Positions 2,146 to 61,787 of a stretch of DNA of 64,000 nucleotides are shown one piece after another. The DNA is from Thermoanaerobaculia bacterium (lineage in GTDB: Bacteria > Acidobacteriota > Thermoanaerobaculia > Gp7-AA8): the NCBI GenBank assembly GCA_963715895.1, contig OY970284.1, positions 2,441,484 through 2,505,483 of the forward strand. The letters run 5' to 3'. A program made the position numbers and the translations under genes. The notes under the pieces are model-generated. The model was not told the DNA's origin and did not search any database. It worked only from the letters and a program-made list of their open reading frames with translations. Numbering within the stretch: position 1 is the first letter of the stretch; each line of letters opens with the position of its first letter.

Positions 2146-2248
2146 CGCTACGCGCGTTGTCGGTTATCGGTTATCGGTTGATTGTGCTTGCGCGCGTTGT
2201 CAGGGAGAAACCAACCGACAACCGATAACCGACAACGCGCGCAGCGCA
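2146..2248. repeat. long imperfect hairpin (about 36-bp arms, about 31-nt loop) whose arms are tandem CGGTTRT heptamers; sits between cheR stop and cheB start
   Basis: Left arm gcgctacgcgcgttgtcggttatcggttatcggttg. Right arm caaccgacaaccgataaccgacaacgcgcgcagcgc, the reverse complement with 2 mismatches. Same heptamer as the 43137-43335 element. Confidence 0.75.
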
Positions 2249-14987: not shown

Positions 14988-15006
14988 GCCGACCTTATAC
15001 ACGGGG

Positions 15007-15161
15007 TTGCGGGGTCTCGCGGTTGCGAGGTCGCGGGGTGGGGGGGCTGGGTTGGTTGGTTTGTGGGTTGCTGCGTGGAGTCACTGCCGAATTGTTACAA
15101 CTCTGCAACCGAGCAACTCAGCAACCACGAGACCGCGAGACCGCGCAACCGCGAGACCGCC
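15007..15161. repeat. inverted repeat with arms of tandem GCGGTCTCGCG-type units (about 30-bp arms, about 88-bp spacer that itself contains GGTTG/CAACC inverted repeats) in the divergent region between dcp2 and the BNR gene
   Basis: Left ttgcggggtctcgcggttgcgaggtcgcgg; right ccacgagaccgcgagaccgcgcaaccgcgagaccgcc. Confidence 0.6.
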
Positions 15162-20108: not shown

Positions 20109-20182
20109 CTCACGCGGAGGCGCGGAGGCGCGGAGAGAAAGACATGATGAGTTCTCCTCTCCGCGTCTCCGCATCTCCGCGT
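20109..20182. repeat. hairpin with GCGGAGRC-type heptad arms (30-bp stem, 12-nt loop) in the divergent rSAM / Pat-like intergenic
   Basis: tcacgcggaggcgcggaggcgcggagagaa / ttctcctctccgcgtctccgcatctccgcgtga. Confidence 0.7.
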
Positions 20183-23747: not shown

Positions 23748-26700
23748 TCAACCTCTTGGCCGGATGGCGATGGCGGCGGCGATGGCGAGGGTGAGCGCCA
23801 GAAGCATCAATGCGTAGCCGCTCATCGCCGGCACCTCTTCGAGCAGGACGACCGGGGCGGTCGACGAGTTGTTGGCGGGCACCGGATCTGTTTCGTTGCC
23901 CGAGACGGTGGCGGTATTGGTCATCGTTCCGGCCACGTGGCCGGTTCCGTGGATGACGATGGTGGCGGTGGCGCCGTTGGGGATCGTGCCGAGGTTGCAG
24001 GTGACGGTTGTCGTCCCGCTGCAGGAGCCCTGCGTCGGGGTGGCGGTCGCCAGCGTGAAGTTGGCCGGGAGGGGATCGGTGACTACGACGCCGGTGGCAG
24101 TGCTGGGGCCGTGGTTGGTGACGACGAGCGTGTAGTCGAACTGCGACTGCTCGAGCAGCGGAGTCGGTGCCGTCTTGACGATTCCGAGGTCGGCCGATGG
24201 TGTGCCGGTCGTGCCGCCGTTGCCGGTGTTGTCGGTGTTGTTCGCCGGGTTTGGATCGGGCTCGGTCGCTGAGGCGGTGGCGCTGTTGTCGAATGCACCG
24301 GCGGCGGTGATCGTGGCTGTAACGGTGATGGTGACGTTGGCACCCGAGGCAAGGCTGGCGATGGTGCAGGGAAGGGCCGCGCAGCCGCCGCCGGTGACGT
24401 TGGTAATGGTCAGGTTCGTCGGCGTGTCGGTGACCTGGACGTTCGTGGCCGTGGACGGTCCGGCGTTGGCAACGACGATCGTGTAGCTGATGGTCTGGCC
24501 ACTGGTAAAGGGACCCGTCGTCGTCAGCGTCTTGACCAGGGAGACGTCGGCCGATGCCGCGGCGGTACCGCCGTTGCCAGTATTGTCGGTGTTGTTGCCG
24601 CTGTTGGGATCGGGCTCGGTGGCGGAGACGGTGGCGGTGTTGTCGAACGAGCCGGCTGCGTTGATCGTTGCGGTGACGTTGATGGTGACGTTGGCGCCCG
24701 AGGCGAGGCTGGCGATGGTGCAGGGCAGAGCGGCGCAGCCGCCGCCGCTGACGTTGGTGATGGTCATGTGCGTCGGGGTGTCGGTGACCTGGACGTTCGT
24801 GGCGGTGGACGGTCCGGCGTTGGCGACAACGATCGTGTAGCTGATGGTCTGGCCGACGGTGAAGGGACCGGCGGTCGTCAGCGTCTTCACCACGGAAACG
24901 TCGGCGGAGGCGCCGGTGACACCGCCGTTGCCGGTGTTGTCGGTGTTATTGCCCGGATTCGGATCAGGCTCCGTCGCCGACACCGTGGCGCTGTTGTCGA
25001 ACGCGCCGACGGTAGTGATCGTGGCGGTGACGTTGATGGTTACGTTGGCGCCCGAGGCCAGGCTGGCGATCGTGCAGGGGAGAGCGGCGCAGCCGCCACC
25101 GCTGACGGTGTTGATGGTCATGTTCGTCGGCGTATCGGTGACCTGTATGTTCGTGGCGGTGGACGGTCCGGCGTTGGCGACGACGATGGTGTAGCTGATG
25201 GTTTGGCCGGCGGTGAAGGGGCCGGAAGTCGTCAGCGTCTTGACGACGGAGACGTCGGCGGACAAGGTCGCCGTGCCGCCGTTGCCTGTGCTGTCGGTGT
25301 TGTTGTTCGTGTTCGGATCGAACTCCGTTGCCGAGACCGTCGATGTGTTGTCGAACGAGCCGGCGGCGGTGATCGTGGCCGTGACGTTGATGGTGACGTT
25401 CGCTCCGGAGGCCAGGCTGGCGATGGTGCACGGCAGCGCGGCACAACCGCCGCCGCTGACGTTGGTGATGGTCATGTTCGACGGTGTGTCGGTGACCTGA
25501 ACGTTGGTCGCGGTCGACGGACCGGCGTTGGCGACCACGATCGTGTAGCTGATCGACTGGCCTGCGTTGAAGGGGCCGGCGGTGGTCAGCGTCTTGACGA
25601 CCGAGACGTCGGCCGAGGCGACGGCGGTGCCGCCGTTGCCGGTGCTGTCGGTGTTGTTGGCGAGGTTCGGATCGGGCTCGGTCGCCGACACGGTAGAGCT
25701 GTTGTCGAAGGCACCGACGGCGGTGATCGTGGCGGTGACGTTGATCGTCGTATTGGCGCCCGAGGCCAGGCTGGCGATGGTGCAGGGGAGTGCGGCGCAA
25801 CCGCTGCCGCTGACGCTGGTGATGTTCAGGTTCGTTGGCGTGTCGGTGACCTGCACGTTGGTCGCCGTCGACGGTCCGGCGTTGGCCACGACGAGCGTGT
25901 AGCTGATCGACTGGCCGAGCGCGTATGGCCCGGAGGTCACCAGGGTCTTGACGACCGACACGTCGGCGGAGGCCAGGGCGGTGCCGCCGTTGCCGGTGTT
26001 GTCGGTGTTGTTGCCGATGTTCGGATCGGGCTCCGTCGCGGAGACGGTGGCGCTGTTGTTGAACGCCCCGGAGGCGTTGATCGTTGCCGTGACGGTGATG
26101 GTGACGTTGGCCCCCGAGGCCAGGCTGGCGATGGTGCAAGGGAGTGCCGCGCATCCGCCGCCGTTGACGTTTGTGATGGTCAGGTTCGTCGGTGTGTCGG
26201 TGACCTGCACGTTGGTGGCCGTCGACGGACCGGCGTTGGCCACGACGAGCGAGAAGGTGATCGACTCGGTTTCCGTGAACGGCCCGCTGGTGGTCAGCGT
26301 CTTGACCACGGAGACGTCGGCCGAGGCGGCGGCGGTGCCGCCGTTGCCGGTGCTGTCGGTATTGTTCGACGGATCGGGATCGGGCTCCGTGGCCGACACG
26401 GTAGCGGTGTTGTCGAACGAGCCGACGGCTGTGATGGTGGCGGTGACGTTGATGGTCGTGTTGGCGCCCGAGGCCAGGCTGGCGATGGTGCAAGGGAGTG
26501 CGGCGCAACCGCTGCCGCTGACGCTGGTGATGGAGAGGTTCGACGGTGTGTCGGTAACCTGCACGTTGGTGGCCGTCGAGGGGCCGGCATTGGCGACGAC
26601 GATCGTGTAGCTGATCGTTTCGCCGACGGTGAACGGTCCCGCGGTGTCGAGGGTCTTGTCGACCGATACGTCGGCCGAGGCGCCGGTGATGCCGCCGTTG

Positions 26701-29700: not shown

Positions 29701-30419
29701 GAATCGGCGTAGAGCTTGTCGCTCGCGGTGGGGAAGGGGCCCGGAACGAACGGTGAGTCATCGGCGGAGTAGGTCGTCGAAACGGAGAGGACCTGGAAGA
29801 TGGTGTTCGGGAAGTTGATGAAGGCCTCGAACTGGTTGTATCCCTGCGTGGCCGTTCCCCCGAGAAGCTGAATGACGTAGGTGTTGCCGACCACCATGTC
29901 CATCGACCCGCCGGCGGGGACGGAAACGAGGGTGGGGATGGTCGCCCCGAACTTGACGTCGGAGACGGAGTTGCGGTTCTGCGAGATGAGGTGCTCGACG
30001 TAGATCTCGCGCGGTGTCGACGTGGAGATCGTGCCCGAGAGGTCGGTGGCGGTGATGTGGTACCGGCGGGTGGTATCGAATGCCGCCGCGGTCTTGACGA
30101 TAGCCACCTCGAAGAATGCGTCTTTGCACTGGCCGGCAGGGATGGACGGAATGGTGATCGTGGTGAGCGAGCCGGCGCGCAGATCGACGAACGCGTTGGC
30201 CGTGTCCCAGACGTAATTGACGGCGACGTTCGTGGTGGCCACGCTGCTGCAGACGCGCGCGCCGACCGGGAAGTTGCCGGGGCCGGTGGCGGGTGAGTTG
30301 CTGTCGAGTCCGACGACGTTCCAGGATACCGGGGCGATGGTCAGCGTCACCGCGGCGTTCGCGGCAACCGGGGCCAGCAGTGTGAAGAGACACATAGCGA
30401 TCAAAGAGATACGGCGCAT
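23748..30419 (-). CDS. giant (2223 aa) secreted cell-surface protein with about 12 tandem DUF11 ('conserved repeat domain') repeats and an IPTL-CTERM-like C-terminal sorting signal
   Basis: Signal peptide MRRISLIAMCLFTLLAPVAANA. About 118-aa units (VSVVKTLTTSGPFT.GQ.ISYTIVVANAGPSTATNVQVTDTP...GGGCAALPCTIASLASGAN.TI.VTATI...) repeated with near-identical 354-bp DNA period between about 24100 and 26950. C-terminus VPAMSGYALMLLALTLAIAAAIAIRPRG. Confidence 0.85.
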   Translation of the reverse strand: MRRISLIAMCLFTLLAPVAANAAVTLTIAPVSWNVVGLDSNSPATGPGNFPVGARVCSSVATTNVAVNYVWDTANAFVDLRAGSLTTITIPSIPAGQCKDAFFEVAIVKTAAAFDTTRRYHITATDLSGTISTSTPREIYVEHLISQNRNSVSDVKFGATIPTLVSVPAGGSMDMVVGNTYVIQLLGGTATQGYNQFEAFINFPNTIFQVLSVSTTYSADDSPFVPGPFPTASDKLYADSCLWENDPNSPNYRSCVGGDFKAGGNNVVTTYTIKVVSGGGTSQPLNTLLYDFSGSSYHYNGDFTTGARIANVIDPTSATIAKSFSPNPTSLNGVSALTITLTNPNGGTVGGYNFVDNLPANLLVANPAGATTSGCGAPTLTATAGSSSISFSNGTLAANSNCVIKVNVTPSATGSLVNTTNHLFIDTTDTGHNATATLTVNTAPPPGTGLCGLTLAKWTFPTGFTLTSPAPSTNNVGTAQAEPGPGLSNPTIQATNSSTTADGTSSWGSNGAITTGTTLVTANDDYYEFAINTTGVSSVTLNFDALEKTPNGPKGLAVFFGTTTKGAGTSEPAASIFNSATAITSTNTWQSFGPITVNSGLNSSGLTFFRIYPYNSGNTNAGSDSNIDNVTFTGCKAAVQPTIAKAFSPNPVAAGGVSTLTFTLTNTNTAALTGAAFTDSLPSGVQVAATPTASTTCGGTWAPAAAATSLTFSGGTIPASGSCTVSVHVTATSAGPHGNVSGTLSTTESGTNISSVGSATLTALVPPVIAKGFNPTPILAGGTSILTFTITNPNQNDAISGVAFADTFPTSPGAMTVGPSPSPATSGCGAPSFSPVTGAGSISFSGGTIAGGGICTVSLQVTVPAVGTYNNTSGNVSYIINAATVNGNTASGSLDAGTPHPSISLLKQISASASGPWSIFLPLSSGPVFYRFTVENTGDVPLSPISITDDTIDVSGCNAGFASVTLPVAVAANDNHIITCVAGPVAITPGSHTNTAHATGTFSGTPHDSANSSATYATTGLTLDKTSVETTYLNPGDTIHYNYLVTNSGSAPLQGPVTVADNKATVTCPAVSTVGDLDNFLDPGESITCTAAYIITGTDIANASVTNTATATVQGVNSNSDSTTVILATAADVSVVKTLTTSGPFTSGQSITYTIFVANAGPATATNVQVTDTPTNETITNVTGGGCAALPCTIASLAAGGNATITVTATINSPGAFDNSATVSATQPDPNPGNNTDNTGNGGITGASADVSVDKTLDTAGPFTVGETISYTIVVANAGPSTATNVQVTDTPSNLSITSVSGSGCAALPCTIASLASGANTTINVTATITAVGSFDNTATVSATEPDPDPSNNTDSTGNGGTAAASADVSVVKTLTTSGPFTETESITFSLVVANAGPSTATNVQVTDTPTNLTITNVNGGGCAALPCTIASLASGANVTITVTATINASGAFNNSATVSATEPDPNIGNNTDNTGNGGTALASADVSVVKTLVTSGPYALGQSISYTLVVANAGPSTATNVQVTDTPTNLNITSVSGSGCAALPCTIASLASGANTTINVTATITAVGAFDNSSTVSATEPDPNLANNTDSTGNGGTAVASADVSVVKTLTTAGPFNAGQSISYTIVVANAGPSTATNVQVTDTPSNMTITNVSGGGCAALPCTIASLASGANVTINVTATITAAGSFDNTSTVSATEFDPNTNNNTDSTGNGGTATLSADVSVVKTLTTSGPFTAGQTISYTIVVANAGPSTATNIQVTDTPTNMTINTVSGGGCAALPCTIASLASGANVTINVTATITTVGAFDNSATVSATEPDPNPGNNTDNTGNGGVTGASADVSVVKTLTTAGPFTVGQTISYTIVVANAGPSTATNVQVTDTPTHMTITNVSGGGCAALPCTIASLASGANVTINVTATINAAGSFDNTATVSATEPDPNSGNNTDNTGNGGTAAASADVSLVKTLTTTGPFTSGQTISYTIVVANAGPSTATNVQVTDTPTNLTITNVTGGGCAALPCTIASLASGANVTITVTATITAAGAFDNSATASATEPDPNPANNTDNTGNGGTTGTPSADLGIVKTAPTPLLEQSQFDYTLVVTNHGPSTATGVVVTDPLPANFTLATATPTQGSCSGTTTVTCNLGTIPNGATATIVIHGTGHVAGTMTNTATVSGNETDPVPANNSSTAPVVLLEEVPAMSGYALMLLALTLAIAAAIAIRPRG

Positions 30420-30711
30420 AGATGGACCTCGCAAATGCCAATACCGGGTGCTGGAAGCTGGACAAATAGCCAGCGCACTCCCCCGGCTGGTTATGGGAAA
30501 ACGATTTTGGACCCGCGTCACTGTAACCGGTTCCAATCACAGTGCCGTCAATCCTGAATGATGAGACCGTGAAAATCGGTGCGGCCAGGGTTCTGCGTGG
30601 CAGAACGATCGAGCGAAGAGGTTGGCCGAGCCTTTGGCAACCAGCGAAGCCGGCCGTGCCGGCCCTACCCGCCCTTGATACCCTCCCTACCCCGTGGGGT
30701 GGCGTGCGGCA

Positions 30712-31982: not shown

Positions 31983-32051
31983 TTTCACGCGGAGACGCGG
32001 AGTCGCGGAGGGGAAGCGATGTACCTCTCGTCTCCGCTTCTTCGCGTGAAA
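31983..32051. repeat. hairpin of the GCGGAGRC heptad family (tttcacgcggagacgcggagtcgcggag / tctcgtctccgcttcttcgcgtgaaa)
   Basis: Same family as 20109-20182 and 40476-40510. Immediately followed by MITE-like copy B. Confidence 0.6.
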
Positions 32052-32460: not shown

Positions 32461-35400
32461 ATGTCGCTCGCCGAAGTCCTCAATCCGCATCAGAAAGCAC
32501 CGCAGAAGAACGTCGTCGAATACGCGATGGTCGACGGCAACGAAGCCGTGGCCCGCATCGCCTACGCGATGAACGAAGTGATCGCCATCTATCCGATCAC
32601 GCCATCCTCCTCGATGGGTGAATGGGCGGATGCCTGGTCGGCGGCAAAGCAGAAGAATCTCTGGGGGACGATTCCGGCGGTCGTGGAGATGCAGAGCGAG
32701 GGGGGCGCGGCGGGAGCGGTGCATGGCGCGTTGCAGACCGGATCGCTTGCCACGACCTTCACCTCGTCGCAGGGCCTGCTGCTGATGATCCCGAATATGT
32801 ACAAGATCGCCGGCGAGCTCACCCCGGCGGTGTTCCATGTCGCGGCGCGCTCCCTGGCCACGCACGCGTTGTCGATCTTCGGCGATCACTCCGACGTGAT
32901 GTCGGTCCGCTCGACCGGCTGGGTGATGCTCTGCTCGGCCAGCGTTCAGGAAGCACAGGATTTCGCCATGATCGCGCACGCCGCCACGCTAGAGGCGCGC
33001 ATCCCCTTCCTGCATTTCTTCGACGGCTTCCGCACGTCGCACGAGATCGCCCGGATCGAAGTGCTTTCCGAGGATCAGATGAGGGCGATGATCGACCTCG
33101 AGCTGGTCTTCGATCACCGCTCCCGCGCCCTGTCGCCCGATCATCCGGTCATCCGCGGTACGGCGCAGAACCCGGATGTCTTCTTCCAGTCGCGGGAACG
33201 GTCCAATCCGTTCTATCGCGACTGCGCATCGATCGTCGTCGAGACGATGGAGCGCTTCGCGCGCGTCACCGGCCGCGCCTACGCGCCGTTCGAATATCAC
33301 GGTGATCCTGTAGCTGAGCGCGTAGTGATCGTCCTCGGCTCGGCCGCCGAGACGCTGCATGAGACCGTCGACGTGTTGCGGGATCAGGGAGAACGCGTCG
33401 GCGTGCTGAAGGTGCGGCTCTATCGCCCCTTCGACAACCAACGCTTCCTCGATGCACTGCCGGAGTCGGCCCGCGCCATCGCCGTGCTCGACCGCACCAA
33501 GGAGCCCGGCGCCGCTGGTGAGCCGCTCTATCTCGACGTCGTCAACGCTCTCTTCGACTCCGACCGCCGCCCGCGCGTGATCGGCGGACGCTACGGCCTC
33601 TCCTCGAAGGAGTTCACTCCGGCCATGGCCAAAGGCGTTTTCGATCATCTCCTCGACCCCAAGCCGCGGAAACAGTTCACCGTGGGGATCGTCGACGACG
33701 TGACGCACCTGAGCATCGACTACGACCGGGCGTTTTCTACTGAGACCACTGACGTCTACCGCGCCATGTTCTACGGACTGGGGTCGGACGGCACGGTCGG
33801 CGCGAACAAGAACACCATCAAGATCATCGGCGAGGAGGGTGGCCGCTTCGCGCAGGGCTACTTCGTCTACGACTCGAAAAAAGCGGGGGCGATCACGGTG
33901 TCGCACCTTCGTTTCGGACCTCGGCCGATCCGCTCGACGTATCTGGTCACCAGCGCGAACTTCATCGCCTGCCACCAGCCACAGTTCGTCGAACGCGTCG
34001 ACATGCTGAAGGACCTGGCGCCGGGCGGGACGTTCCTGCTCAACGCGCCGGCGGGTTTCATTCTGCCGCGCACGTTCGCGGCGCAGTTGGCCGCGAAGAA
34101 GGCACGCGTCTTTGCCATCGACGCCACGCGCGTGGCCGCCGAGTGCGGCCTCGGCAACCGCATCAATACTCTGATGCAGGTCTGCTTCTTTGCCACCGCC
34201 GAGGTGCTGCCGATCGAGGAGGCGCTGGAAGCCGTCCGCGAGACCATCCGCAAGACCTACGCGAAGAAGGGCGAGAAGGTCGTGGCCATGAATCTCCGCG
34301 CGGTCGACGCCGCGCTGCAGAGTCTGCGTCCGATCGCGATCGACACGGAAGCACAGACAAGAGTGTCTGTGCCACAAGAGACAGGAGTGTCTGTGTCACA
34401 AAAGGAGAGCCAATGTGGCACAGACACTCTTGTCTGTGCCGGGCCGCTCCGCGACGTCATCCTGCCGATCATCGAAGGCCGCGGTGAGGATCTCCCGGTC
34501 AGCGCCATGCCGTGCGACGGCACGTTCCCTTCCTCCACCGCGCGCTACGAGAAGCGCAACCTCGCCACCGAGATCCCGGTGTGGGATCCGGTCTCCTGCA
34601 TCCAGTGCGGCAAGTGTGCGATGGTCTGTCCGCACGCGGCCATCCGGATCAAGGCCTATGACCAGTCGCTGCTGGAAGGCGCGCCGGCCACGCTCAAGTC
34701 GCTGACGCCGATGCACAAGGATTGGGCAGGGCTGGCGTACACCATCCAGGTCGCACCGGAGGACTGCACCGGTTGCACGATCTGCGTCGACGTCTGCCCG
34801 GCCAAGAGCAAGAGCGTTCCAGACCGCAAGTCGCTTTACATGCAGCCGCAGCCGCCGCTGCGCGATGCGGAGCGCGAGAACTGGAACTGGTTCCTCGATC
34901 TGCCGGAGCTCGACCGATCGAAACTCAATCCGACGCTGATCCGGCATCAGCAGCTCCAACAGCCGATGTTCGAGTTCTCCGGCGCCTGCTCCGGCTGCGG
35001 CGAGACGCCGTATGTAAAGCTGCTCACACAGCTCTTCGGCGACCGCCTGGTCGTGGCCAATGCCACCGGCTGCTCGTCGATCTACGGCGGCAATCTGCCG
35101 ACGACGCCCTGGTCGACGAACCGTGACGGCCGCGGCCCCGCCTGGGCGAACTCCCTCTTCGAGGACAACGCCGAGTTCGGCCTCGGCTTCCGCGTTTCGA
35201 TCGACAAACAGCGTGACTTTGCCATCGAGCTGCTGAAGTCTCTCGCCCCCGCCGTCGGCGAGAACCTGGCGGCCTCGATCATCGATGCCACCCAGCGCGA
35301 CGATGCCGAGATCTTCGAGCAGCGCAAGCGCGTCGAGCTGCTCAAAGTCGCTCTGCGCCGCCTGGAGCTGAAGACCCGGATGCACAAGCTCGATCCGACC

Positions 35401-36194: not shown

Positions 36195-36575
36195 TTCTTC
36201 ACGAGCGGTCGTGTAGCCTCCAGAGCCTCATGGGTGTGGCTTGAAGCCTCTCAGGGTGGACTCTGAGCCTCCTCCATGACGCTTTAGGCCTACCCCATGA
36301 GGCGTCGAGCCTCCTCAGTAGATCCATGGATCTACCCAAGTGGGCTCTAAGCCTACCCCATGAGGCTGTAGGTCTCTTCAGTAGATCCATGGATCTACTC
36401 AAATAGGCTTTAAGCCTACCCCATGAGGCTTTAAGCTTTAAGCCTATTCGGTAGATCCATGGATCTACACCATGAGGCTTAAAGCCTACCCTATGAGGCT
36501 TGAAGCCTATTCAGTAGATCCTGGGATCTACTCGAGACGAAAAAAAGCCTATTCAGTAGATTCAGAATCTACTCG
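36195..36575. repeat. array of about 6 units (about 63 bp) each carrying an 18-bp palindrome GTAGATCCATGGATCTAC and a second IR AAGCCTaccccatgAGGCTT
   Basis: Perfect palindromes at 36318-36335, 36381-36398, 36451-36468; variants at 36514-36531 and 36555-36571. In the convergent por / 36562 gene intergenic, bordering the low-GC islet. Confidence 0.75.
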
Positions 36576-39543: not shown

Positions 39544-39622
39544 AGAGGTTGGTTCTTCCGCTTCGCGCCTTCGCGGCTTCGCGTGAGATCGATGTTCACG
39601 CGAAGCGCAGATATCCACTGCC

Positions 39623-39889: not shown

Positions 39890-39968
39890 GACGCACCTCC
39901 GAGCCGTGACGATCGCATGCGGCCGGGTTGGCGTCGAGATCGGACCGCACACGTCCACGTGATTCGCG

Positions 39969-40510
39969 TCACGCGGAGGCGCGAAGCACTTATGGAGGGC
40001 GGTTGTGCGCGGAGGCGCGGACCACAATTCAGCCCCGCGCTCGGCGCAGCGCGAGCGCGGGGAATCGGTGGTGATGTGGAAGTGCGGCCGCGGAGGCGGC
40101 CGCTACAAGCTGTGCGGATCCGCTTCTGTTGCGAATTGGGCGGCGTTGTCCCGGCCGCCTCCGCGGCCGGCAAATGGGCGACCCCTCGTACCCCGCGCTC
40201 GCGCTACGCAGAGCGCGGGGCTGGATTGTGGAGCGCGCCTTCGCGCGAACCGGGAGCGCTGGCGCCAATCGCGTTTGGTTGTGGGCGATAGCCCGCGGAG
40301 TCAGGGGCGGCGCGGGCCGGGGGCGAGACCTCAGCGCTCCGCAAACCACCGCCCCGCCCGGCAAGATGCCAAACGTCTGCGGTAACCCGGCGGCGGGACG
40401 CACGCCGGGCCAGCCGGCGAGACGCCAGCGCTCCGGAAAACCCCCGCCGCCCGACCCGGTGAGACGCCACGGCTCTTTTTCTCCGCGTCTCCGCGTCTTC
40501 GCGTGAAACC
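39969..40510. repeat. 540-bp non-coding region: GCGGAGRC-family arm (39969-40023), GC-rich hairpins ccccgcgctcg...cgagcgcgggg (40033-40059, 40184-40211), about 100-nt direct repeat (ggcgagacNNcagcgctccgNaaaccNccgccNcgcccgg, at about 40322 and 40419), and matching right arm tttttctccgcgtctccgcgtcttcgcgtgaaacc (40476-40510)
   Basis: Seen directly in sequence; same arm family as 20109 and 31983. Confidence 0.55.
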
Positions 40511-42607: not shown

Positions 42608-43075
42608 ATGAAAAGCACCAGTAAATGGATCACCGCAGCAGCCGTCCTCGGGCTGTCAGCCACCCTCGCCTTCGCCGGTACCGGCATGGGCGAAGGGCAC
42701 GGTCATGGCTTCGAAGGCAAGGGGCGACATCACGGGTTCAGCAAGCTCGCCAGCAAGCTGAACCTCACCGATGCGCAGAAGGTGCAGTGGAAAGCGATCC
42801 GCAAGAGCTCGCACGAGCAGAATGCGGCGTTCTTTCAGCAGTCGCGCCAGACGTGGCAGGAACTTCACGCGGCGAAGAAAGCCGGCGACACGGCGAAGGC
42901 CGATTCACTCAAGCCGGCGCTTCAGTCGCAGCGCGCGCAGATGAAGCAGATCCGCGCCGCCGAGGAGCAGCAGTTCGTCAAGATCCTCACGCCGGAGCAG
43001 AGCGCGCAGTACCAGACCCTCAAGGCCGAGCGGGCCGCGCGTCATGCCGCACGTGAGTCGCAAGAGAAGAAGTAA
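42608..43075 (+). CDS. Spy/CpxP-family periplasmic protein (LTxxQ motifs)
   Basis: Signal peptide MKSTSKWITAAAVLGLSATLAFA. LNLTDAQK and LTPEQSAQ LTxxQ repeats; His/Gly-rich N-terminus (GEGHGHGFEGKGRHHG). Confidence 0.7.
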   Translation: MKSTSKWITAAAVLGLSATLAFAGTGMGEGHGHGFEGKGRHHGFSKLASKLNLTDAQKVQWKAIRKSSHEQNAAFFQQSRQTWQELHAAKKAGDTAKADSLKPALQSQRAQMKQIRAAEEQQFVKILTPEQSAQYQTLKAERAARHAARESQEKK

Positions 43076-43099
43076 GCAGCACGCATCGCAGCAGTGAAT

Positions 43100-43127
43100 G
43101 AGGAGGCGGCGACGCCTCCTTTTTTTG
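43100..43127 (+). terminator. Rho-independent terminator after the spy/cpxP-like gene
   Basis: gaggaggcg-gcga-cgcctcct followed by ttttttt. Confidence 0.65.
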
Positions 43128-43136
43128 GCCTTCGGC

Positions 43137-43335
43137 GTTGTCGGTTATCGGGGCGGTTATCGGTTATCGGTTGTCGGTTGTCTGGGGCGCGGTAGGTAGA
43201 AGGGTGGGGAATCGGAGTTTCGGATCACACCAACGTCTGACCTCCGACAACCGACAACCGACAACCGACAACCGACAACCGACAACCGACAACCGACAAC
43301 CGATAACCGACAACCGACAACCGATAACCGATAAC
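43137..43335. repeat. large inverted repeat whose arms are tandem CGGTTRT / YAACCGA heptamers (about 5 on left, 12 consecutive on right) separated by about 63 bp
   Basis: Left gttgtcggttatcggggcggttatcggttatcggttgtcggttgtc. Right gacaaccga(caaccga)x6 taaccgacaaccgacaaccgataaccgataaccgacgac. Same heptamer as the cheR-cheB hairpin. Confidence 0.8.
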
Positions 43336-43457
43336 CGACGACCCAACCCCACCCAAAACACCCCAGTGCAGTCCATGCCATGCCTGTGCAACTCGCGTAA
43401 ATCACGCAAGCGGCGGCATTTGTGCAGTGTTAGAGCGTAACGAAGGGAGTAAGGGTC

Positions 43458-44759
43458 ATGAAACGCAAATTGATCATCGGAGCCATCCTGGTCGCCGTCC
43501 TCGGCACCACCGGTGTTTTCGTCTATCGCGACGCGTTCGCGAAGCCGGCGGCAGCATTCCGGTTCGTCACCGTGGAGCGCGGCAATCTGCAGCAGTCGGT
43601 CTCCGCTACCGGAACGCTCGGCGCGGTGACGACGGTCAGCGTCGGCACGCAGGTCTCGGGACAGGTTGCCCAACTGCTCGTCGACTATAACGATGTGGTG
43701 AAAAAGGGCCAGCTCCTGGCGCGGATCGATCCGACTCTGGCGCAGCAGGGGGTCGTCGATGCGCAGGCCAATCTCGACAAGGTGCGGGCGCAGCTCCTTC
43801 AGGGGCAGCGCGACAACAACCGCAACCGTGAGCTGAACACCGATGGCCTGCTGGCCAAGAGCGCCTTCGAGCAGAGCCAGTCATCGGTCGAGGTGGCGCA
43901 AGCGGATGTGAAGTCGGCTCAGGTGGCGCTTGACCGCGCGCGGCAGAATCTCGCCTACACCAATATCTACGCGCCGATCGACGGCGTCGTCGTCGACCGC
44001 AACGTGCAGCAGGGGCAGACCGTCGCGGCCAGCCTCTCGGCGCCGCAGCTCTTCCTGATCGCCAACGATCTCGCGCACATGCAGATCCTGGCGCAGGTGG
44101 GGGAGAGCGACATCGCCCAGATCAAGGAAGGGGAGCCGGTGTCGTTCAGCGTGCAGGCGCTGCCGAACCAGAAATTCAACGGAACCGTGCAGCAGGTCCG
44201 TCTGCAGTCGACGGTGGCCGACAACGTCGTCGACTACACCGTCGTCATCGCCGTCGACAACGCTCAGAACAAGCTTCTGCCGGGCATGACGGCACGCGTC
44301 GATCTCCAGACGCAGTCTGCCACGAACGTGCTGAAGGTCTCGAACGCGGCACTGCGCTTCAAGCCGACCGATGAACAGCTCGCGCAGCTCGGCGTACAGA
44401 AGGCGGCCGCTCCCGCGAAGACCACGACAACATCCACAGCGACGTCGACGATGTCGCCTGCCGAGCGCGCGGCGCGGAAAGCGGCGCGGGGCGGGCAAAG
44501 GCCCTCGATCGCCACGCTTTACTACCTCGACCAGAACGGCAAGCTTGCCTCCGCGAACGTCGCCACCGGCGTGAGCGACGGAACGTCGACCGAGATCAAG
44601 ACGCGCGGTGACTCCGTCATCAAGGAAGGGACGAACGTCGTAGCCGGTATCGCAGCGCCGTCGACTGCCACCGCTGCCACCGCCACCACCGGCTCGTCCG
44701 CGAGCCCGTTCACCCCAAGCGGAGGGCAGCAGCGTCCTGGAAGCCGGGGAGGCATCTAA
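43458..44759 (+). CDS. macA: HlyD/MacA-family periplasmic adaptor subunit of a tripartite efflux system
   Basis: N-terminal TM anchor, long coiled-coil (LAQQGVVDAQANLDKVRAQLLQGQRDNNRNRELN...), lipoyl/beta-barrel motifs (IYAPIDGVVVDRNVQQGQTV). Confidence 0.8.
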   Translation: MKRKLIIGAILVAVLGTTGVFVYRDAFAKPAAAFRFVTVERGNLQQSVSATGTLGAVTTVSVGTQVSGQVAQLLVDYNDVVKKGQLLARIDPTLAQQGVVDAQANLDKVRAQLLQGQRDNNRNRELNTDGLLAKSAFEQSQSSVEVAQADVKSAQVALDRARQNLAYTNIYAPIDGVVVDRNVQQGQTVAASLSAPQLFLIANDLAHMQILAQVGESDIAQIKEGEPVSFSVQALPNQKFNGTVQQVRLQSTVADNVVDYTVVIAVDNAQNKLLPGMTARVDLQTQSATNVLKVSNAALRFKPTDEQLAQLGVQKAAAPAKTTTTSTATSTMSPAERAARKAARGGQRPSIATLYYLDQNGKLASANVATGVSDGTSTEIKTRGDSVIKEGTNVVAGIAAPSTATAATATTGSSASPFTPSGGQQRPGSRGGI

Positions 44760-45514
44760 TGAGCGACGTCGTCATCGAAACGCGGCAGATCACGAAGACG
44801 TACGAGAGCGGATCGAAGAGCGGGTCGAATTCCGTGCATGCCTTGCGCGGAATCGACCTGACCGTCAACCGCGGCGAGTTCATCGCCGTGATGGGCACCT
44901 CGGGCTCAGGCAAGTCGACGCTGATGAACGTCCTCGGATGCCTCGATACGCCGACGTCGGGCTCCTATCTGCTCGACGGCGTGCATGTCGAGTCGCTCGG
45001 CAAGAACGAGCTCGCGGCCATCCGCAATCAGAAGATCGGCTTCGTTTTCCAGGGGTTCAACCTGCTGGCGCGCACGAGTGCGGTAGAAAACGTGCAGCTT
45101 CCGTTGCTCTATGACCGCAGCGGCAAGAAGCGCGACACGCATGCTCTTGCCATCGCCGCGCTGGAGAGCGTCGGACTGGGAGAGCGCGTCGATCACGAGC
45201 CGAGCGAGCTCTCGGGCGGGCAGCAGCAGCGCGTAGCCATCGCACGCGCGCTGGTCACCGAGCCGGCCATCATTCTCGCCGACGAGCCGACCGGCAATCT
45301 CGACTCGCACACGTCGGTGGAAGTGATGGCGCTGTTTCAAGCGCTGAATGACAAGGGCATCACCATCGTCCTGGTCACGCACGAGCCCGACATCGCCGTC
45401 TACGCAAAGCGAATCGTTGAATTCCGCGACGGCAGCATTCGCCGCGACGAGCTCGTGAAGGAGCGCCGCAACGCGGCCAGGGATCTCGAAGAGGAAGAAA
45501 GGAGCGCAGCATGA
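44759..45514 (+). CDS. ABC transporter ATP-binding protein (MacB/LolD type)
   Basis: Walker [11 protein letters not shown]-loop, signature [15 protein letters not shown], Walker [13 protein letters not shown]. Start overlaps macA stop (TAATG). Confidence 0.85.
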
Positions 45515-46728
45515 AGATCCAGATTCTCGTGAAGCTCGCCCTCCAGGCAATCCGCAAGAACAAGATGCGGGCGACACTGACGATGCTCGGCATCATCATC
45601 GGCGTGGCCGCGGTCATCGTGATGGTGGCCATCGGCTCCGGCGCCCGCGCCCGCATCCAGTCGCAGATCAACAACCTCGGCACGAACATGATCGTCATCA
45701 CGCCCGGTTCGGCCAATACCGCCGGCGTGAGCCAGGGCGCGCAGGCCTTTCCGACGCTATCGCTCGATGACGTGACCAAGATCCGCACCGAGGCGCAGTA
45801 CGTGACCGGCGTGTCCCCGGTCGTCGTCAGCAGATCGCAGGTGGTGGCGCAATCCGGAAACTGGCGGACGACGATCAACGGTGTCGATACCGACTACCAG
45901 ACCATCCGCGACTGGCAGACGGCCGACGGCGCTTTCTTCGGTGCCGACGACGTGCGCGGCCAGCGTGCCGTGGCCGTGGTCGGCCACACGGTGGCGCAGC
46001 GTCTCTTCGGCGACAACGAGCCGGTGGGTCAGGACATCCAGATCGCCAATTCGCCATTCAAGATCGTCGGCGTGCTGACGGTGAAGGGTCAGACCGCATC
46101 CGGCACCGACTCCGACGACGTGATCTTCGTGCCCTACACCACCGCCGCGGCGCGTCTCAACGGCAAGAGCCGCATCCCGCAGATCGTGGCCTCGGCGGGC
46201 TCCCAGCAGGACATCCCCGCCGCACAGGATGAGATTCGCGGCCTCGTGCGCGAGTCACATCGTCTGGCCAGCGGCGACGAAGACGACTTCACGGTCCGCA
46301 ATCAGACTGATCTTGCCCAGGCGGCAGAGAGCTCGACCACCGTGATGACCATGCTTCTCGCGGCCATCGCCTCGATCTCGCTGCTCGTCGGCGGCATCGG
46401 CATCATGAACATCATGCTGGTGTCGGTCACCGAGCGAACCCGCGAGATCGGCATCCGCCTGGCCATCGGCGCCCGCGGCTCCGACGTCCTCACGCAGTTC
46501 CTCGTGGAGAGCATCGTCATGGGCATCCTCGGCGGCGCCATCGGTCTCGCGGTCGGCGTCACCGGCGCCAAGGTGCTCGGCCATTTCACCGGATGGGAGA
46601 CCGTGATCTCCCCGATCGTGATGCTGATCGCCATCGGCTTCTCCGGCGCGGTCGGGGTGTTCTTCGGCTACTACCCGGCAAGAAAGGCGGCGGCACTGAA
46701 TCCGATTCAGGCGCTGCGGTATGAGTGA
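45511..46728 (+). CDS. ABC transporter permease, MacB/FtsX family
   Basis: N-terminal TM (LTMLGIIIGVAAVIVMVAIGSGA), large periplasmic domain, C-terminal FtsX 3-TM bundle (...IGIRLAIGARGSDVLTQFLVES...). Confidence 0.8.
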   Translation: MKIQILVKLALQAIRKNKMRATLTMLGIIIGVAAVIVMVAIGSGARARIQSQINNLGTNMIVITPGSANTAGVSQGAQAFPTLSLDDVTKIRTEAQYVTGVSPVVVSRSQVVAQSGNWRTTINGVDTDYQTIRDWQTADGAFFGADDVRGQRAVAVVGHTVAQRLFGDNEPVGQDIQIANSPFKIVGVLTVKGQTASGTDSDDVIFVPYTTAAARLNGKSRIPQIVASAGSQQDIPAAQDEIRGLVRESHRLASGDEDDFTVRNQTDLAQAAESSTTVMTMLLAAIASISLLVGGIGIMNIMLVSVTERTREIGIRLAIGARGSDVLTQFLVESIVMGILGGAIGLAVGVTGAKVLGHFTGWETVISPIVMLIAIGFSGAVGVFFGYYPARKAAALNPIQALRYE

Positions 46729-46736
46729 CGGAGGCC

Positions 46737-47028
46737 GCCTCACTCTCATGTAAATCGCCGGCGCCCTCTTTACCCATCGACGGCCTTCTCCCCCGCGGTT
46801 TCTGGCGGGGGAGAAGGTGCCGACAGGCGGATGAGGGGGCGCTTGCGGGTGCGTTATTCGTGCGCGACACGTGTTTTCAAGCGGCCCTTGGGCCAACGAC
46901 GCAAGATCGTTTCTGACGCGTATGCGCCTCCCTCATCCGCCTGTCGGCACCTTCTCCCCCCGCAAAAAAACCGCGGGGGGAGAAGGCTCTCGGCGAAAGG
47001 GCGTGGCAAGAAACGAAGCAATGCTGTG
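46737..47028. repeat. modular MITE-like element copy C (left outer IR truncated; right end runs into the parE-like toxin gene)
   Basis: Contains the 57-nt hairpin module in inverted pair. Right-end homology to copy A ends at cacagcattgcttcg (47014-47028, reverse strand). Confidence 0.6.
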
Positions 47029-47262
47029 TGCGCGGTAGTAGATGACGAATCCTACCCGGCGTAGAAACACCTGACGGACGTTTCGCGTCCTCGTGTTCGT
47101 GGCTCGCCGGCCAATGCCGGGAGTGGTGGCGAGTATTGCCGACATCGACCGGAAGTCTTCGTCGACTGCATTCGGCGCTGCGGTCTGGTTCATTTGCCAC
47201 CACGCGTCGGCGATATCGAGTTGCAGTTGGGCCTGCGGTGTTATGTCGATCGGGAGAGCCGT
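47029..47262 (-). pseudogene. ParE/RelE-type toxin gene remnant: no canonical start codon, and 3' end replaced by MITE-copy-C sequence
   Basis: ParE-like ...IDITPQAQLQLDIADAWWQMNQTAAPNAVDEDFRSMSAILATTPGIGRRATNTRTRNVRQVFLRRVGFVIYYRAH. After this the ORF continues into repeat-encoded ...SIASFLATPFRREPSPPAVF. Frame overlaps the antitoxin stop. Confidence 0.45.
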
Positions 47263-59054: not shown

Positions 59055-59066
59055 TGCTTCGCCCTC

Positions 59067-59167
59067 GGGGGTCGGGGGTCGGGGGTAGGAGGTCGGAGAA
59101 GGCAGGCCGAGGGCGCGAAAACCAGAGCGGGTTTTCTCCGACTCCCGACCCCCGACTCCCGACTCCC
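59067..59167. repeat. hairpin with GGGGTCG / GGGAGTC heptad arms (about 33-bp arms, about 33-nt loop) filling the nuoL-nuoM spacer
   Basis: ggggtcgggggtcgggggtaggaggtcggagaa / ttctccgactcccgacccccgactcccgactccc. Confidence 0.75.
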
Positions 59168-59169
59168 GC

Positions 59170-61095: not shown

Positions 61096-61193
61096 GAAGG
61101 ATGAAGGCAGAGGGCAGAAGGCAGAAGTGTGAGTCGAGAGGCCTCAGGCCGCTACGACTTCATCCTTCTGCCTTCTGCTTTCTGCCTTCATCC
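61096..61193. repeat. hairpin with GAAGGCA heptad arms immediately upstream of nuoL
   Basis: gaaggatgaaggcagagggcagaaggcagaag / cttcatccttctgccttctgctttctgccttcatcc. Confidence 0.75.
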
Positions 61194-61648: not shown

Positions 61649-61693
61649 TTTCGGCTCCTGTTGAGCCTGAAAATGCGACGTTCGTGCCGTCTT

Positions 61694-61781
61694 GAGCTGT
61701 TAGCTCTTAGCTGTTGGCTCTTAGGGGACCGAAGTCACAGATTTGGATGTCCCTAAGAGCTGACAGCTAACAGCTAAGAGC
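61694..61781. repeat. hairpin with AGCTNTT heptad arms between nuoK and the acidic ORF
   Basis: gagctgttagctcttagctgttggctcttagggga / tccctaagagctgacagctaacagctaagagc. Confidence 0.75.
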
Positions 61782-61787
61782 TTTCTC

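What the first reader, a model, noticed from the sequence alone, without database searches (positions are those of the whole stretch)
43137..43335. Extreme heptamer-arm inverted repeat: 12 consecutive YAACCGA units opposite about 5 CGGTTRT units, sharing its heptamer with the cheR-cheB hairpin
Directly after a canonical terminator (43100-43127), a second structure has a right arm of 12 perfect tandem heptamers (caaccga/taaccga) and a shorter left arm of the complementary heptamer. The 2146-2248 element uses the same heptamer (cggttatcggttatcggttg ... caaccgacaaccgataaccgacaac). So at least this heptamer forms a dispersed family with variable copy number, i.e. VNTR-like slippage within hairpin arms.
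Basis: seen in the sequence. Interest (0 to 1): 0.65.

Follow-up and report, generated by a model that had tools for sequence, protein, structure and literature searches.

The report
Heptamer-armed hairpin, one of many
The odd hairpin is real: it is one copy of an abundant family of non-coding hairpins whose two arms are short tandem repeats, and here one arm has recently ballooned by replication slippage, so it is a lively example of a poorly understood kind of bacterial repeat and probably not a new device.

Summary
**Observation: confirmed.** After the terminator at 43100-43127 lies a hairpin with 13 perfect YAACCGA units (43248-43338) opposite 5-6 CGGTTRT units (RNA fold -130.5 kcal/mol, z = -9.1). 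The cheR-cheB spacer holds a smaller copy.

**Source and class.** The source is a Thermoanaerobaculia (Acidobacteriota) genome. The window holds at least 8 such "tandem-armed hairpins" with different 7-8 nt units, several of them inside operons.

**History of this copy.** Relatives whose HlyD is 84-98% identical carry a hairpin at this same site, with only 2-4 heptamer units per arm. The 13-unit arm, which has 8 identical units in a row, is therefore a recent lineage-specific expansion.

**Behaviour across about 52 orthologous nuo loci.**
- Junctions are empty or filled.
- Units change on both arms.
- Stem mismatches show no G·U excess.

**Polarity.** The G-rich arm is almost always the 5' arm: 26/28, 40/40 and 35/38 in three samples.

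**Precedent.** Paired heptamer/octamer arrays were reported before in Xanthomonas and Geobacter metallireducens, with no function established.

**Verdict.** This is a REP/MITE-like selfish or near-neutral repeat shaped by slippage and DNA-level arm copying. It is a new member of a known but unexplained kind. Its function at this locus is probably nil or marginal.

The parts
42608..43075 (+). Upstream gene: LTXXQ/Spy-like periplasmic protein
   Evidence: Pfam PF07813, E = 2.9e-14. Syntenic in L003, L005, L007-9, L012 and L207.
43100..43127 (+). Canonical intrinsic terminator of the LTXXQ gene (9-bp GC stem, 4-nt loop, T7)
   Evidence: Terminator scan. Invariant in all five aligned relatives.
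43137..43182 (.). Left (5', G/T-rich) arm: GTTGTCG, GTTATCG, a GGGC interruption, then 4 perfect CGGTTRT units (43154-43181)
43183..43243 (.). Spacer or loop. It may be the decayed remnant of the inner octamer arms and loop seen in relatives, but the similarity is only marginal.
   Evidence: Alignment A1. Similarity to L012/L007 inner region: z = 2.0, with 18-23 of 500 shuffles as good.
43244..43343 (.). Right (3', C/A-rich) arm: 13 perfect YAACCGA units (43248-43338) plus degenerate ends
   Evidence: TRF: 14.3 copies, score 172. Unit parse.
43248..43303 (.). Block of 8 identical CAACCGA units with no partner on the left arm: the inferred recent slippage expansion on the loop side of the right arm
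   Evidence: The closest allele, L208, has only about 3 degenerate units here.
43309..43337 (.). Outermost right-arm units, 100% complementary to 43154-43182 and orthologous to the right end in L208 and L012
   Evidence: pair I2; flank comparison.
43344..43457 (+). Conserved leader and probable promoter region of the HlyD-MacB efflux operon. It begins immediately after the element.
   Evidence: Conserved block from ACCCCAGTGCA onward in all relatives, including the non-syntenic L010. No sigma-70 consensus hit.
43458..46728 (+). Downstream operon: HlyD-family adaptor, ABC ATPase, MacB-type permease
   Evidence: Pfam.
2146..2248 (.). Second copy with the same heptamer (3 units per arm) and an outer clamp GCGCTACGCGCG/CGCGCGCAGCGC. 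It fills the cheR-cheB spacer.
   Evidence: The clamp-plus-heptamer junction recurs in L033, L039 and L093.
15002..15160 (.). Class member: compound hairpin with octamer units (GGTTGCGG/GGTCTCGC outer, GTTGSNNN inner)
20112..20182 (.). Class member of the CGCGGAGN octamer family, with termini TCACGCGGAG...CTCCGCGTGA
   Evidence: The same family occurs in a Lysobacterales MAG contig and in viral contigs.
31987..32047 (.). Class member of the CGCGGAGN family
59065..59168 (.). Class member (TCGGGGG / CGGGAGT units) filling the nuoL-nuoM junction, which is a 4-nt ATGA overlap in many relatives
61103..61189 (.). Class member (GAAGGCA / GGATGAA units) between DUF6335 and nuoL
61690..61782 (.). Class member (TSTTAGC units) between nuoK and DUF6335

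Best explanation
**What it is.** The feature is one copy of a lineage-wide class of non-coding 'tandem-armed hairpins'. These are REP/MITE-like extragenic palindromes whose two arms are short arrays of a 7-8 nt unit, with the G-rich arm on the 5' side.

**Shown.**
- A hairpin has occupied the gap between the LTXXQ-gene terminator and the conserved leader of the HlyD-MacB operon since before lineages with 84%-identical HlyD diverged.
- Relatives carry 2-4 heptamer units per arm there, plus inner octamer arms and a loop that recurs at another locus.
- Families share non-repeat parts between unrelated loci, so copies spread.
- Junctions can be empty or filled.
- Units are replaced on both arms over time.

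**Inferred.**
- In the window's lineage, replication slippage recently expanded the right outer arm to 13 units (8 identical), leaving 5-6 on the left.
- Arms stay roughly 90% complementary because of DNA-level copying between arms (template switching on the hairpin) and recent origin. Classical selection on an RNA stem is not the cause.
- At this particular site, a neutral gap between transcription units, the element most likely has no dedicated function. At most, the long unpaired C-rich arm could help stop read-through.
For: **The structure is real.**

**It is a class, not a single family.**
- 8 paired period-7/8 arrays occur in the window. Partner scores are 11.5-33.5 against a null 99th percentile of 11. 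Period-6 and period-9 arrays are coding and unpaired.
- 30 such hairpins (before removing copies shared by the near-identical L007/L009) occur in 264 kb of Thermoanaerobaculia DNA.

**Site persistence with copy-number change.** L003/L207 (98%), L208 (97%), L005 (97%), L007-9 (87%) and L012 (84%) all have a hairpin directly after the same terminator. Outer arms there are 2-4 units.

**Dispersal by copying.**
- The loop GTTCGGCGATTCGGCGCT occurs at the HlyD site and at L027 in the same MAG.
- The junction AACACC-CCGAGACCGCG occurs at 6 or more sites.
- The clamp GCGCTWCGCGCG-TTGTCGG occurs in 4 sequences (the window plus L033, L039, L093).

**Filled versus empty sites.**
- L007 and L012 carry a hairpin where L008, L001 and the window have a 10-nt spacer.
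- Among about 52 loci the nuoL/nuoM junction is an ATGA overlap or otherwise hairpin-free in 27, tandem-armed in 22 and another palindrome in 4. The DUF6335/nuoL junction scores 18, 23 and 11.

**Units replaced on both arms at one site.**
- GGATGAA/TTCATCC became GGCAGAA/TTCTGCC.
- An intermediate is visible in another series. L132 is perfect (CGGGTGT/ACACCCG), L143 is mismatched (left CGGGTGT, right ACAGCCG) and L148 is re-matched (CGGCTGT/ACAGCCG).

**Arms can homogenise separately.** L081 and L135.

**No RNA signature.**
- Sense-strand stem mismatches are 33 G·U-type, 54 A·C-type and 78 transversion-type, against 1557 matches.
- No strand folds consistently better.
- There is no Rfam hit.

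**Not terminators.** Copies sit inside the che and nuo operons.
Against: - Slippage has not been observed directly. No second isolate or read set of this strain was available, and near-identical assemblies of relatives (L001/L003/L207 and L007-9) show no length differences in their short arrays.
- Occupancy of the same site over 84-98% protein identity, and re-matching of arms after unit change, could equally reflect selection for a folded structure.
- The near-universal G-first polarity implies some filter or mechanism that this explanation does not derive.
- No mobilising enzyme and no clear target-site duplication were found.
- The same units (CGGTTRT, CGCGGAG) recur in distant phyla and in viral contigs. 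That could point to a conserved binding protein.
- The claim that the window's spacer is a decayed inner arm rests on marginal similarity (z = 2).
Confidence: 0.5

Rival explanations
1. **Functional RNA hairpin.** The elements are transcribed and selected as stable stem-loops. Possible roles are RNase III processing sites or 3'-exonuclease barriers that set differential mRNA stability within operons, or bridges that keep the Shine-Dalgarno sequence and the start codon close. At the target the hairpin, together with the unpaired C-rich arm, would act as a back-up (Rho-type) insulator behind the intrinsic terminator.
For: - Most copies lie between co-directional genes, 0-60 nt from gene ends, including inside the che and nuo operons.
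- Stems of about 28-35 bp are long enough for RNase III (established knowledge).
- Arms are re-matched after unit turnover.
- At DUF6335/nuoL the insert sits between a conserved SD-bearing hairpin and the ATG. The flanks sum to about the same SD-ATG spacing as in empty sites, about 13-14 nt.
- G-first polarity would hide the C-rich arm from Rho whichever strand is transcribed (inference).
- Rehm et al. 2015 (PMC4692102) found most Xanthomonas arrays transcribed.
Against: - There is no G·U enrichment on the sense strand (33 against 54 A·C) and many transversion mismatches.
- There is no sense-strand folding advantage.
- Many orthologous junctions do well with no hairpin at all.
- Arms can be non-complementary (L081, L135, L143).
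- The target sits behind a strong terminator and upstream of the conserved leader, so it may be barely transcribed.
Confidence: 0.25
2. **Protein-binding array.** Each 7-8 nt unit is a binding site for a host or element-encoded protein, such as a nucleoid-associated or global regulator or a transposase. Paired arrays would then be operators or transposase-binding ends.
For: - Aklujkar et al. 2009 (PMC2700814) annotated the analogous paired arrays in G. metallireducens as 'predicted global regulator binding sites' and saw ISGme8/9 at a fixed distance from them.
- The same units recur across phyla and in viral contigs: CGGTTRT and CGCGGAGN with identical termini.
- The polarity rule could reflect a directional enzyme.
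Against: - At least a dozen unrelated units coexist in one lineage and even at one junction. That would need many proteins.
- Units drift freely at a site.
- A period of 7-8 does not match the DNA helical repeat.
- The only transposase in the window (IS4-like) has unrelated ends and sits in a different palindrome.
Confidence: 0.12
3. **Contingency (phase-variation) locus.** Changes in heptamer copy number alter the spacing of promoter elements and switch HlyD-MacB efflux expression.
For: - The variable tract lies upstream of an efflux operon.
- Copy number differs between lineages.
Against: - The tract ends before the conserved leader/promoter block and about 115 nt before the ATG.
- It is not between promoter hexamers.
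- Identical architecture occurs at sites with no promoter, inside operons.
Confidence: 0.05
4. **G-quadruplex-forming repeats**, as proposed for the Xanthomonas GGGAATC arrays.
For: Some units are G3N4 (CGGGAGT, CGGGTGT). A G4 motif is present in 2 of 8 window elements.
Against: The target and 5 other window elements have no G4 motif on either strand. Units such as CGGTTRT, GAAGGCA and TSTTAGC cannot form three-tetrad G4s.
Confidence: 0.03

Closest known systems
Paired (convergent) GGGAATC heptamer arrays of Xanthomonas (Rehm et al. 2015, PLoS One, PMC4692102)
   Same: - Tandem heptamer arrays on opposite strands lie close together: 70-75 pairs per genome, up to 14 units.
- They are intergenic and near stop and start codons.
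- Position is mostly conserved between species, with length differences.
- The G-rich arrays are convergent, which is the same G-first polarity found here.
   Different: - Xanthomonas has one dominant unit, interpreted as G-quadruplex-forming.
- Here there are a dozen or more units, and most, including the target's, are not G4-capable.
- The elements here include composite hairpins.
- The phylum is different (Acidobacteriota).
'Predicted global regulator binding sites' classes 1-3 of Geobacter metallireducens (Aklujkar et al. 2009, BMC Microbiol, PMC2700814)
   Same: - Several classes of 3-5 tandem hepta- or octanucleotides occur as pairs on opposite strands at variable distance.
- Their function is unknown.
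- Unit consensi resemble units here: TCTCCGTS against TCTCCGCG, and GTTGCTYN against GTTGCTNN at 15105-15126.
   Different: - They were only catalogued there and interpreted as protein-binding sites.
- No comparative or turnover analysis was done.
- An association with ISGme8/9 was reported there and is not seen here.
REP / REPIN elements mobilised by RAYT transposases
   Same: - They are short non-coding extragenic palindromes and are abundant.
- They sit between genes and inside operons.
- Several families occur per genome.
- They show presence/absence polymorphism.
- A REPIN is two inverted repeats around a spacer.
- They are IS target sites.
   Different: - There is no GTAG or CGTC tag.
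- The arms are tandem arrays that slip in register.
- Units drift within a site.
- No RAYT was identified, though only 64 kb of the genome was seen.
STRR heptamer arrays of heterocystous cyanobacteria and TAACTGA direct repeats of Beggiatoaceae, cyanobacteria and Bacteroidetes (MacGregor 2015, PMC4679880)
   Same: - They are intergenic tandem heptamers, with several unit families.
- They are oriented relative to start codons and spread across phyla.
- TAACCGA differs from TAACTGA by one base.
   Different: Those are overwhelmingly direct, unpaired arrays: one inverted case among 170 sets in BOGUAY. Many Bacteroidota hits of the CGGTTRT scan are of this unpaired type.
MITEs
   Same: They are small, non-coding and dispersed, with terminal inverted repeats and filled/empty sites.
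   Different: - There is no clear target-site duplication. ATGA flanks the nuoL/nuoM inserts but is required to keep both ORFs intact.
- No parent IS with matching ends was found.
- The arms are internally repetitive.

Membership tests
Paired tandem hepta/octamer arrays (Xanthomonas / G. metallireducens type) | Two arrays of the same 7-8 nt unit on opposite strands within about 200 nt | tested here: met
   Partner score 33.5 against a null 99th percentile of 11.
Paired tandem hepta/octamer arrays (Xanthomonas / G. metallireducens type) | Intergenic, close to gene ends, many copies per genome | tested here: met
   There are 8 in 64 kb and 30 in 264 kb. The whole genome was not available.
Paired tandem hepta/octamer arrays (Xanthomonas / G. 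metallireducens type) | Position conserved between related genomes, with array length differences | tested here: met
Paired tandem hepta/octamer arrays (Xanthomonas / G. metallireducens type) | Convergent orientation of the G-rich arrays (G-first) | tested here: met
   target GC skew +0.29 on the 5' arm, -0.24 on the 3' arm; 26/28 and 40/40; 35/38.
Xanthomonas G4-type repeats specifically | Unit with a G3+ tract giving a four-tract G-quadruplex motif | tested here: not met
   no G4 motif in the target on either strand.
REP / REPIN | Unpaired GTAG (or CGTC) tag at one end of a 20-40 nt palindrome | tested here: not met
   no consistent tag at the ends of the 8 window elements.
REP / REPIN | Cognate RAYT (Y1 HUH transposase) gene in the genome, flanked by the repeats | not testable with these tools
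   Only 64 kb of the 6.64 Mb genome is held. Among the 18 window proteins scanned against Pfam, only the two copies of an IS4-like DDE transposase hit a transposase family.
MITE | Target-site duplication flanking the insert | tested here: inconclusive
   ATGA lies on both sides of nuoL/nuoM inserts, but selection requires it. There is no clean duplication at the L007/L008 site.
MITE | Autonomous IS with the same terminal inverted repeats | tested here: not met
   The IS4-like element in the window ends in CACAGTTGTCCAAATTAGG, unrelated to any unit. Only the window was tested.
Intrinsic (Rho-independent) terminator | GC-rich stem followed directly by a U-tract | tested here: not met
   No T-run follows 43343. 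The scan finds only the 43100 terminator. Class members sit inside operons.
Known structured RNA family (Rfam 15) | Match at the gathering score to any covariance model | tested here: not met
   0 matches in the whole window.
SSR contingency locus | Repeat tract inside an ORF or between promoter elements of the regulated gene | tested here: not met
   The tract ends before the conserved leader block and 115 nt before the ATG. The promoter itself has not been mapped.

The most novel reading that the evidence does not exclude
Tandem-armed, G-first hairpins are a cross-phylum class of self-organising non-coding DNA that needs no dedicated transposase.

- **Birth:** copies are seeded or captured at gene junctions through microhomology and template switching. 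Native CATCC or GGGAGT next to the insert matches the unit.
- **Growth:** they grow by slippage.
- **Maintenance:** the arms stay complementary by inter-arm copying on the DNA hairpin.
- **Filter:** they are filtered by a polarity rule, perhaps because a C-rich arm that emerges first would load Rho inside operons.
- **Spread:** a few families (CGCGGAGN with TCACG...CGTGA ends, and CGGTTRT) move between phyla, possibly on phages.

This would also explain the long-noted excess of heptamer repeats in bacterial intergenic DNA.
Probability: 0.22. Interest if true: 0.8.

Novelty: new member of a known kind. Interest (0 to 1): 0.5.

Why it matters
An excess of heptanucleotide repeats in bacterial intergenic DNA has been noted since 2007 and remains unexplained (as cited in PMC4692102), and cyanobacterial heptamer arrays were reported even earlier.

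This lineage offers an unusually clean natural experiment:
- the same gene junctions are found empty, filled, or filled with different units across a graded series of relatives;
- intermediates of unit replacement are visible;
- a strict G-first polarity holds across phyla.

Together these make concrete hypotheses testable: slippage plus inter-arm copying, Rho avoidance, and hairpin bridging of the SD-ATG spacing.

There is also a practical point. These elements break short-read assemblies and sit inside core operons, so they affect MAG contiguity and annotation.

Tried and rejected
- **Source genome look-up.** Exact-protein look-up of the window's HlyD and of P0001 found nothing on record. 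The source genome could therefore not be fetched, and no same-strain comparison was possible.
- **First array detector.** My first home-made array detector was too strict: it found 8 arrays and 2 pairs. I replaced it with TRF plus partner alignment.
- **Exact-partner matching.** In the cross-phylum loci this under-called pairs, so I replaced it with alignment scoring.
- **Arm extractors.** Two automated arm extractors failed before a split-point scan worked.
- **RNA-level selection.** Rejected as the main force. No strand folds consistently better and there is no G·U excess.
- **Terminator role.** Rejected: there is no U-tract and copies sit inside operons.
- **REP membership.** Rejected on the missing GTAG/CGTC tag.
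- **G-quadruplex idea.** Rejected for the target.
- **Known RNA families.** No match.
- **'Spacer = decayed inner arms'.** Could not be established; the similarity is marginal at z = 2.
- **Nested insertion.** I first read the composite as an octamer element nested inside a heptamer hairpin. However, the same composite, with the same loop, recurs at L027, so it more likely moved as one unit.
- **Cross-phylum sharing of CGCGGAGN.** This rests on MAG bins and IMG/VR predictions and could be affected by mis-binning.

Full report
**1. The observation**

Reading 42900-43560 shows the end of an ORF, a textbook terminator (GAGGAGGCGGCGACGCCTCC plus T7, 43100-43127; scan) and then the structure described.

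- **Right arm.** It holds 13 perfect YAACCGA units at 43248-43338, the first 8 of them identical CAACCGA. TRF reports 14.3 copies over 43244-43343.
- **Left arm.** At 43137-43182 it has 5 perfect CGGTTRT units and one degenerate unit, broken by GGGC.
- **Pairing.** The inner 29 nt of the left arm pair perfectly with the outermost 29 nt of the right arm (pair I2). The surplus units therefore sit on the loop side of the right arm.
- **Statistics.** Three-unit runs occur 15 times in the window against 0.00 expected. The region folds at -130.5 kcal/mol, z = -9.1.
- **Second copy.** The cheR-cheB spacer (2146-2248) holds a smaller copy with the same heptamer.

The count is 13, not 12.

**2. It is one of a class**

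- TRF lists many short-period arrays. Pairing each array with the reverse complement of its flanks shows that every intergenic period-7 or period-8 array in the window is one arm of a hairpin. There are 8 clear cases, with partner scores of 11.5-33.5 against a null 99th percentile of 11. Period-6 and period-9 arrays lie in coding DNA and are unpaired.
- Units differ from locus to locus: CGGTTRT, GGTTGCGG/GGTCTCGC, CGCGGAGN, TCGGGGG, GAAGGCA and TSTTAGC.
- Several copies lie inside operons: cheR|cheB and nuoK|DUF6335|nuoL|nuoM. They therefore cannot be efficient terminators.
- No Rfam family matches anywhere in the window.

**3. Source and orthologous loci**

The HlyD-family protein next to the element has close relatives named Thermoanaerobaculia bacterium. 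A 100%-identical entry sits on a 6.64 Mb contig that could not be fetched. Contigs encoding relatives at 98%, 97%, 87% and 84% identity were fetched. In every syntenic relative the same terminator is followed by a hairpin:

| Loci | HlyD identity | What follows the terminator |
|---|---|---|
| L007-9, L012 | 87%, 84% | Composite: outer arms GTTGTCGGTTGTCGG / CAACCGACAACCGA, inner octamer arms (GGTTGCGG GGTCTCGC), loop CAGTTCGGCGATTCGGCGCTGC |
| L003/L001/L207 | 98% | Left heptamers and inner arms kept; right heptamers lost |
| L208 | 97% | The window's right end, but only about 3 degenerate units, with intact inner arms |
| L005/L006 | 97% | Units GAGTCGG/GGGGTCG opposite CCGACCC/CCGATTC: same TCGG core, other positions changed on both arms |

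The site has therefore been occupied for a long time. The 13-unit arm is specific to the window's lineage, and the run of 8 identical units is what recent slippage would leave. The window's spacer is only marginally similar to the relatives' inner arms and loop (z = 2.0), so whether it is their remnant is open. Downstream, a conserved block starting at ACCCCAGTGCA (43355 onward) is shared even with a non-syntenic relative. The element thus fills exactly the gap between a terminator and the next operon's leader.

**4. Dispersal**

Hits came from many phyla.
- Thirteen hits are from 9 Thermoanaerobaculia MAGs, 5 of them from the same MAG as L012. Seven of these 13 have an inverted partner.
- Blastocatellia, Terriglobales, Saprospiraceae and Lysobacterales also show paired forms. 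Most Bacteroidota hits are unpaired direct arrays.
- Family-specific non-repeat parts recur at unrelated loci: the composite's loop at the HlyD site and at L027, the junction AACACC-CCGAGACCGCG at 6 or more sites, and the clamp GCGCTWCGCGCG-TTGTCGG in 4 sequences, including the window's cheR-cheB copy.

These are therefore copied families, not only locally grown microsatellites.

**5. Dynamics at gene junctions**

*One filled/empty pair.* L007 and L012 carry an 82-nt hairpin exactly where L008, L001 and the window have the 10-nt spacer GGAGTAGTTC. L007-L008 identity drops from 99.5% to 96.9% at that point, so recombination moves alleles around.

*About 52 orthologous nuoL loci.*

| Junction | No hairpin | Tandem-armed hairpin | Other palindrome |
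|---|---|---|---|
| nuoL/nuoM | 27 (mostly a 4-nt ATGA overlap) | 22 | 4 |
| DUF6335/nuoL | 18 | 23 | 11 |

*Units change while outer ends and loops persist.*
- GGATGAA/TTCATCC became GGCAGAA/TTCTGCC between shared ends AAGGATGAAGG...CCTTCATCCTT.
- An intermediate is visible in another series: CGGGTGT/ACACCCG (L132), then left CGGGTGT against right ACAGCCG (L143, mismatched), then CGGCTGT/ACAGCCG (L148).
- Normalised arm complementarity is 0.76-0.78 within a locus and about 0.33 between loci.
- Arms can also homogenise separately (L081, L135).

*Hints about how copies arise.* At two filled/empty junctions the native sequence beside the insert matches the unit: CATCC against TTCATCC, and GGGAGT against GGGAGTC. 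This suggests local seeding or microhomology-guided copying. It rests on only two cases.

**6. RNA or DNA?**

In the nuo set the transcribed strand is known. Across 52 unique hairpins, stem mismatches are 33 G·U-type, 54 A·C-type and 78 transversion-type, against 1557 matches. Structured RNAs normally show a strong G·U excess, and here there is none. Folding the two strands of 30 hairpins shows no sense-strand advantage. Pairing therefore looks maintained by recent origin and DNA-level copying between arms, not by classical selection on an RNA stem. This lowers the RNA-function rival but does not exclude it.

**7. An unexpected rule**

The 5' arm is the G-rich one. For an inverted repeat this reads the same on both strands, so it does not depend on gene or replication direction.

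| Sample | G-first |
|---|---|
| Unique hairpins in the window and Thermoanaerobaculia loci | 26 of 28 (p = 3e-6) |
| Unique hairpins at the nuo junctions | 40 of 40 |
| Paired hairpins in other phyla, many with unrelated units | 35 of 38 (p = 7e-8) |
| CGCGGAGN pairs in viral contigs | 31 of 32 |

- Non-tandem palindromes at the same junctions split 9:3.
- Rehm et al. describe the Xanthomonas pairs as convergent, which is the same polarity.
- I have no demonstrated cause. One testable idea is that a C-rich arm emerging first would expose a Rho-loading tract inside operons.
- At the target, which lies outside an operon, about 8 C-rich units are unpaired. That would be tolerated, or could even help stop read-through.

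**8. Comparison with what is known**

- Paired heptamer or octamer arrays were reported in Xanthomonas (PMC4692102; 70-75 pairs, up to 14 units, conserved positions with length differences, interpreted as G4) and in G. metallireducens (PMC2700814; classes 1-3, interpreted as regulator sites). Some unit consensi there resemble units here.
- The target meets the defining features of that kind, except G4 potential.
- It fails the REP tag test (REP definition from PMC3733652).
- It fails the terminator test.
- MITE features are inconclusive.
- STRR and TAACTGA repeats are direct arrays, not paired ones.

**9. Verdict**

It is a new member (Acidobacteriota, multi-unit, composite) of a known but unexplained kind.

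- **Best explanation (confidence 0.5):** a REP/MITE-like selfish or near-neutral hairpin, long resident at this site, whose right arm recently expanded by slippage. Arms are matched by DNA-level copying, and there is no dedicated function here.
- **Main rival (0.25):** a functional RNA stem-loop.
- **What stands out at class level:** the turnover at junctions, the lack of a wobble signature and the G-first rule. These are the interesting parts and deserve a genome-wide follow-up.

Noticed in passing
window 5254-8080: Two tandem copies of an IS4-like element (387-aa DDE_Tnp_1 + DUF4372 transposase at 5367-6530 and 6824-7987). Each is inserted into a 24-nt palindrome, GGCACAGACACTCTTGTCTGTGCC, which also occurs at 34355-34401 and upstream of nuoL in L142/L143. 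This is a separate REP-like family that acts as an IS target.
   Followed up: partly
all tandem-armed hairpins (window, L013-L126, L127-L206, L235-L354): G-first polarity rule: the G-rich arm is 5' in 26/28, 40/40, 35/38 and 31/32 cases across more than a dozen units and several phyla. The CTTCGCG family (window 39561-39610, L007 4639-4700) is an exception.
   Followed up: yes
window 20112-20182 and 31987-32047; L013 5170-5370; viral loci L245, L246, L249-L251: The CGCGGAGN octamer hairpins have fixed non-repeat ends (TTCACGCGGAG...CTCCGCGTGAA). The same element occurs in a Lysobacterales MAG contig and in more than 120 IMG/VR contig stretches (median GC 0.65). This suggests cross-phylum spread or (pro)phage carriage. 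MAG binning has not been verified.
   Followed up: partly
window 39968-39986 and 40480-40506: The two arms of a CGCGGAG-type hairpin are separated by about 500 nt of other palindromic repeats. In L005 the same arms are about 300 nt apart. Hairpin loops seem to be landing sites for further elements.
   Followed up: partly
window 46729-47032; L001 3578-4220; L005 7807-8450: After the MacB permease gene the window has a roughly 240-nt near-perfect palindrome. The 96%-identical relatives instead carry a different palindromic element (78% similar to window 23468-23704, matching on both strands) plus small ORFs. This is whole-element replacement at a 3' intergenic site.
   Followed up: partly
window 23084-23369 and 36281-36531: Longer-period intergenic tandem repeats: 42-44 nt in about 3.7 and 2.8 copies, and 63 nt in about 3.9 copies. 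Their nature is unknown.
   Followed up: no
window 23748-30536 (- strand): A giant 2262-aa ORF containing 8 copies of a 354-nt (118-aa) repeat, probably a repetitive surface or adhesin-like protein.
   Followed up: no
rc of window 61190-61240; L127-L195 about 60-170 nt upstream of nuoL: A small conserved hairpin (GATGCGGGG..CTCCTCGCATC...GATGCGAGGAGA) follows the DUF6335 stop and carries the only SD-like motif for nuoL. Where a tandem-armed hairpin is inserted, the SD lies about 90-110 nt from the ATG. The flanks still sum to the spacing seen in empty sites, so folding may restore SD-ATG proximity.
   Followed up: partly
L007 vs L008, position about 17644: Nucleotide identity between two otherwise 99.5%-identical metagenome contigs drops to 96.9% exactly at a hairpin presence/absence site. 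This looks like a homologous-recombination breakpoint at the element.
   Followed up: partly
L132, L138, L139, L141, L146, L153 upstream of nuoL; L140 and L169 downstream of nuoL; L010 9700-9890: Another abundant non-tandem palindromic element with ends like GTCATCCTGAGC...GAAGGATC / GATCCTTCG...GCTCAGGATGAC occupies the same junctions in other lineages.
   Followed up: no
L002, L004, L208 (contig ends): Short-read metagenome contigs of close relatives end inside the hairpin at the HlyD locus, so these elements fragment assemblies.
   Followed up: partly
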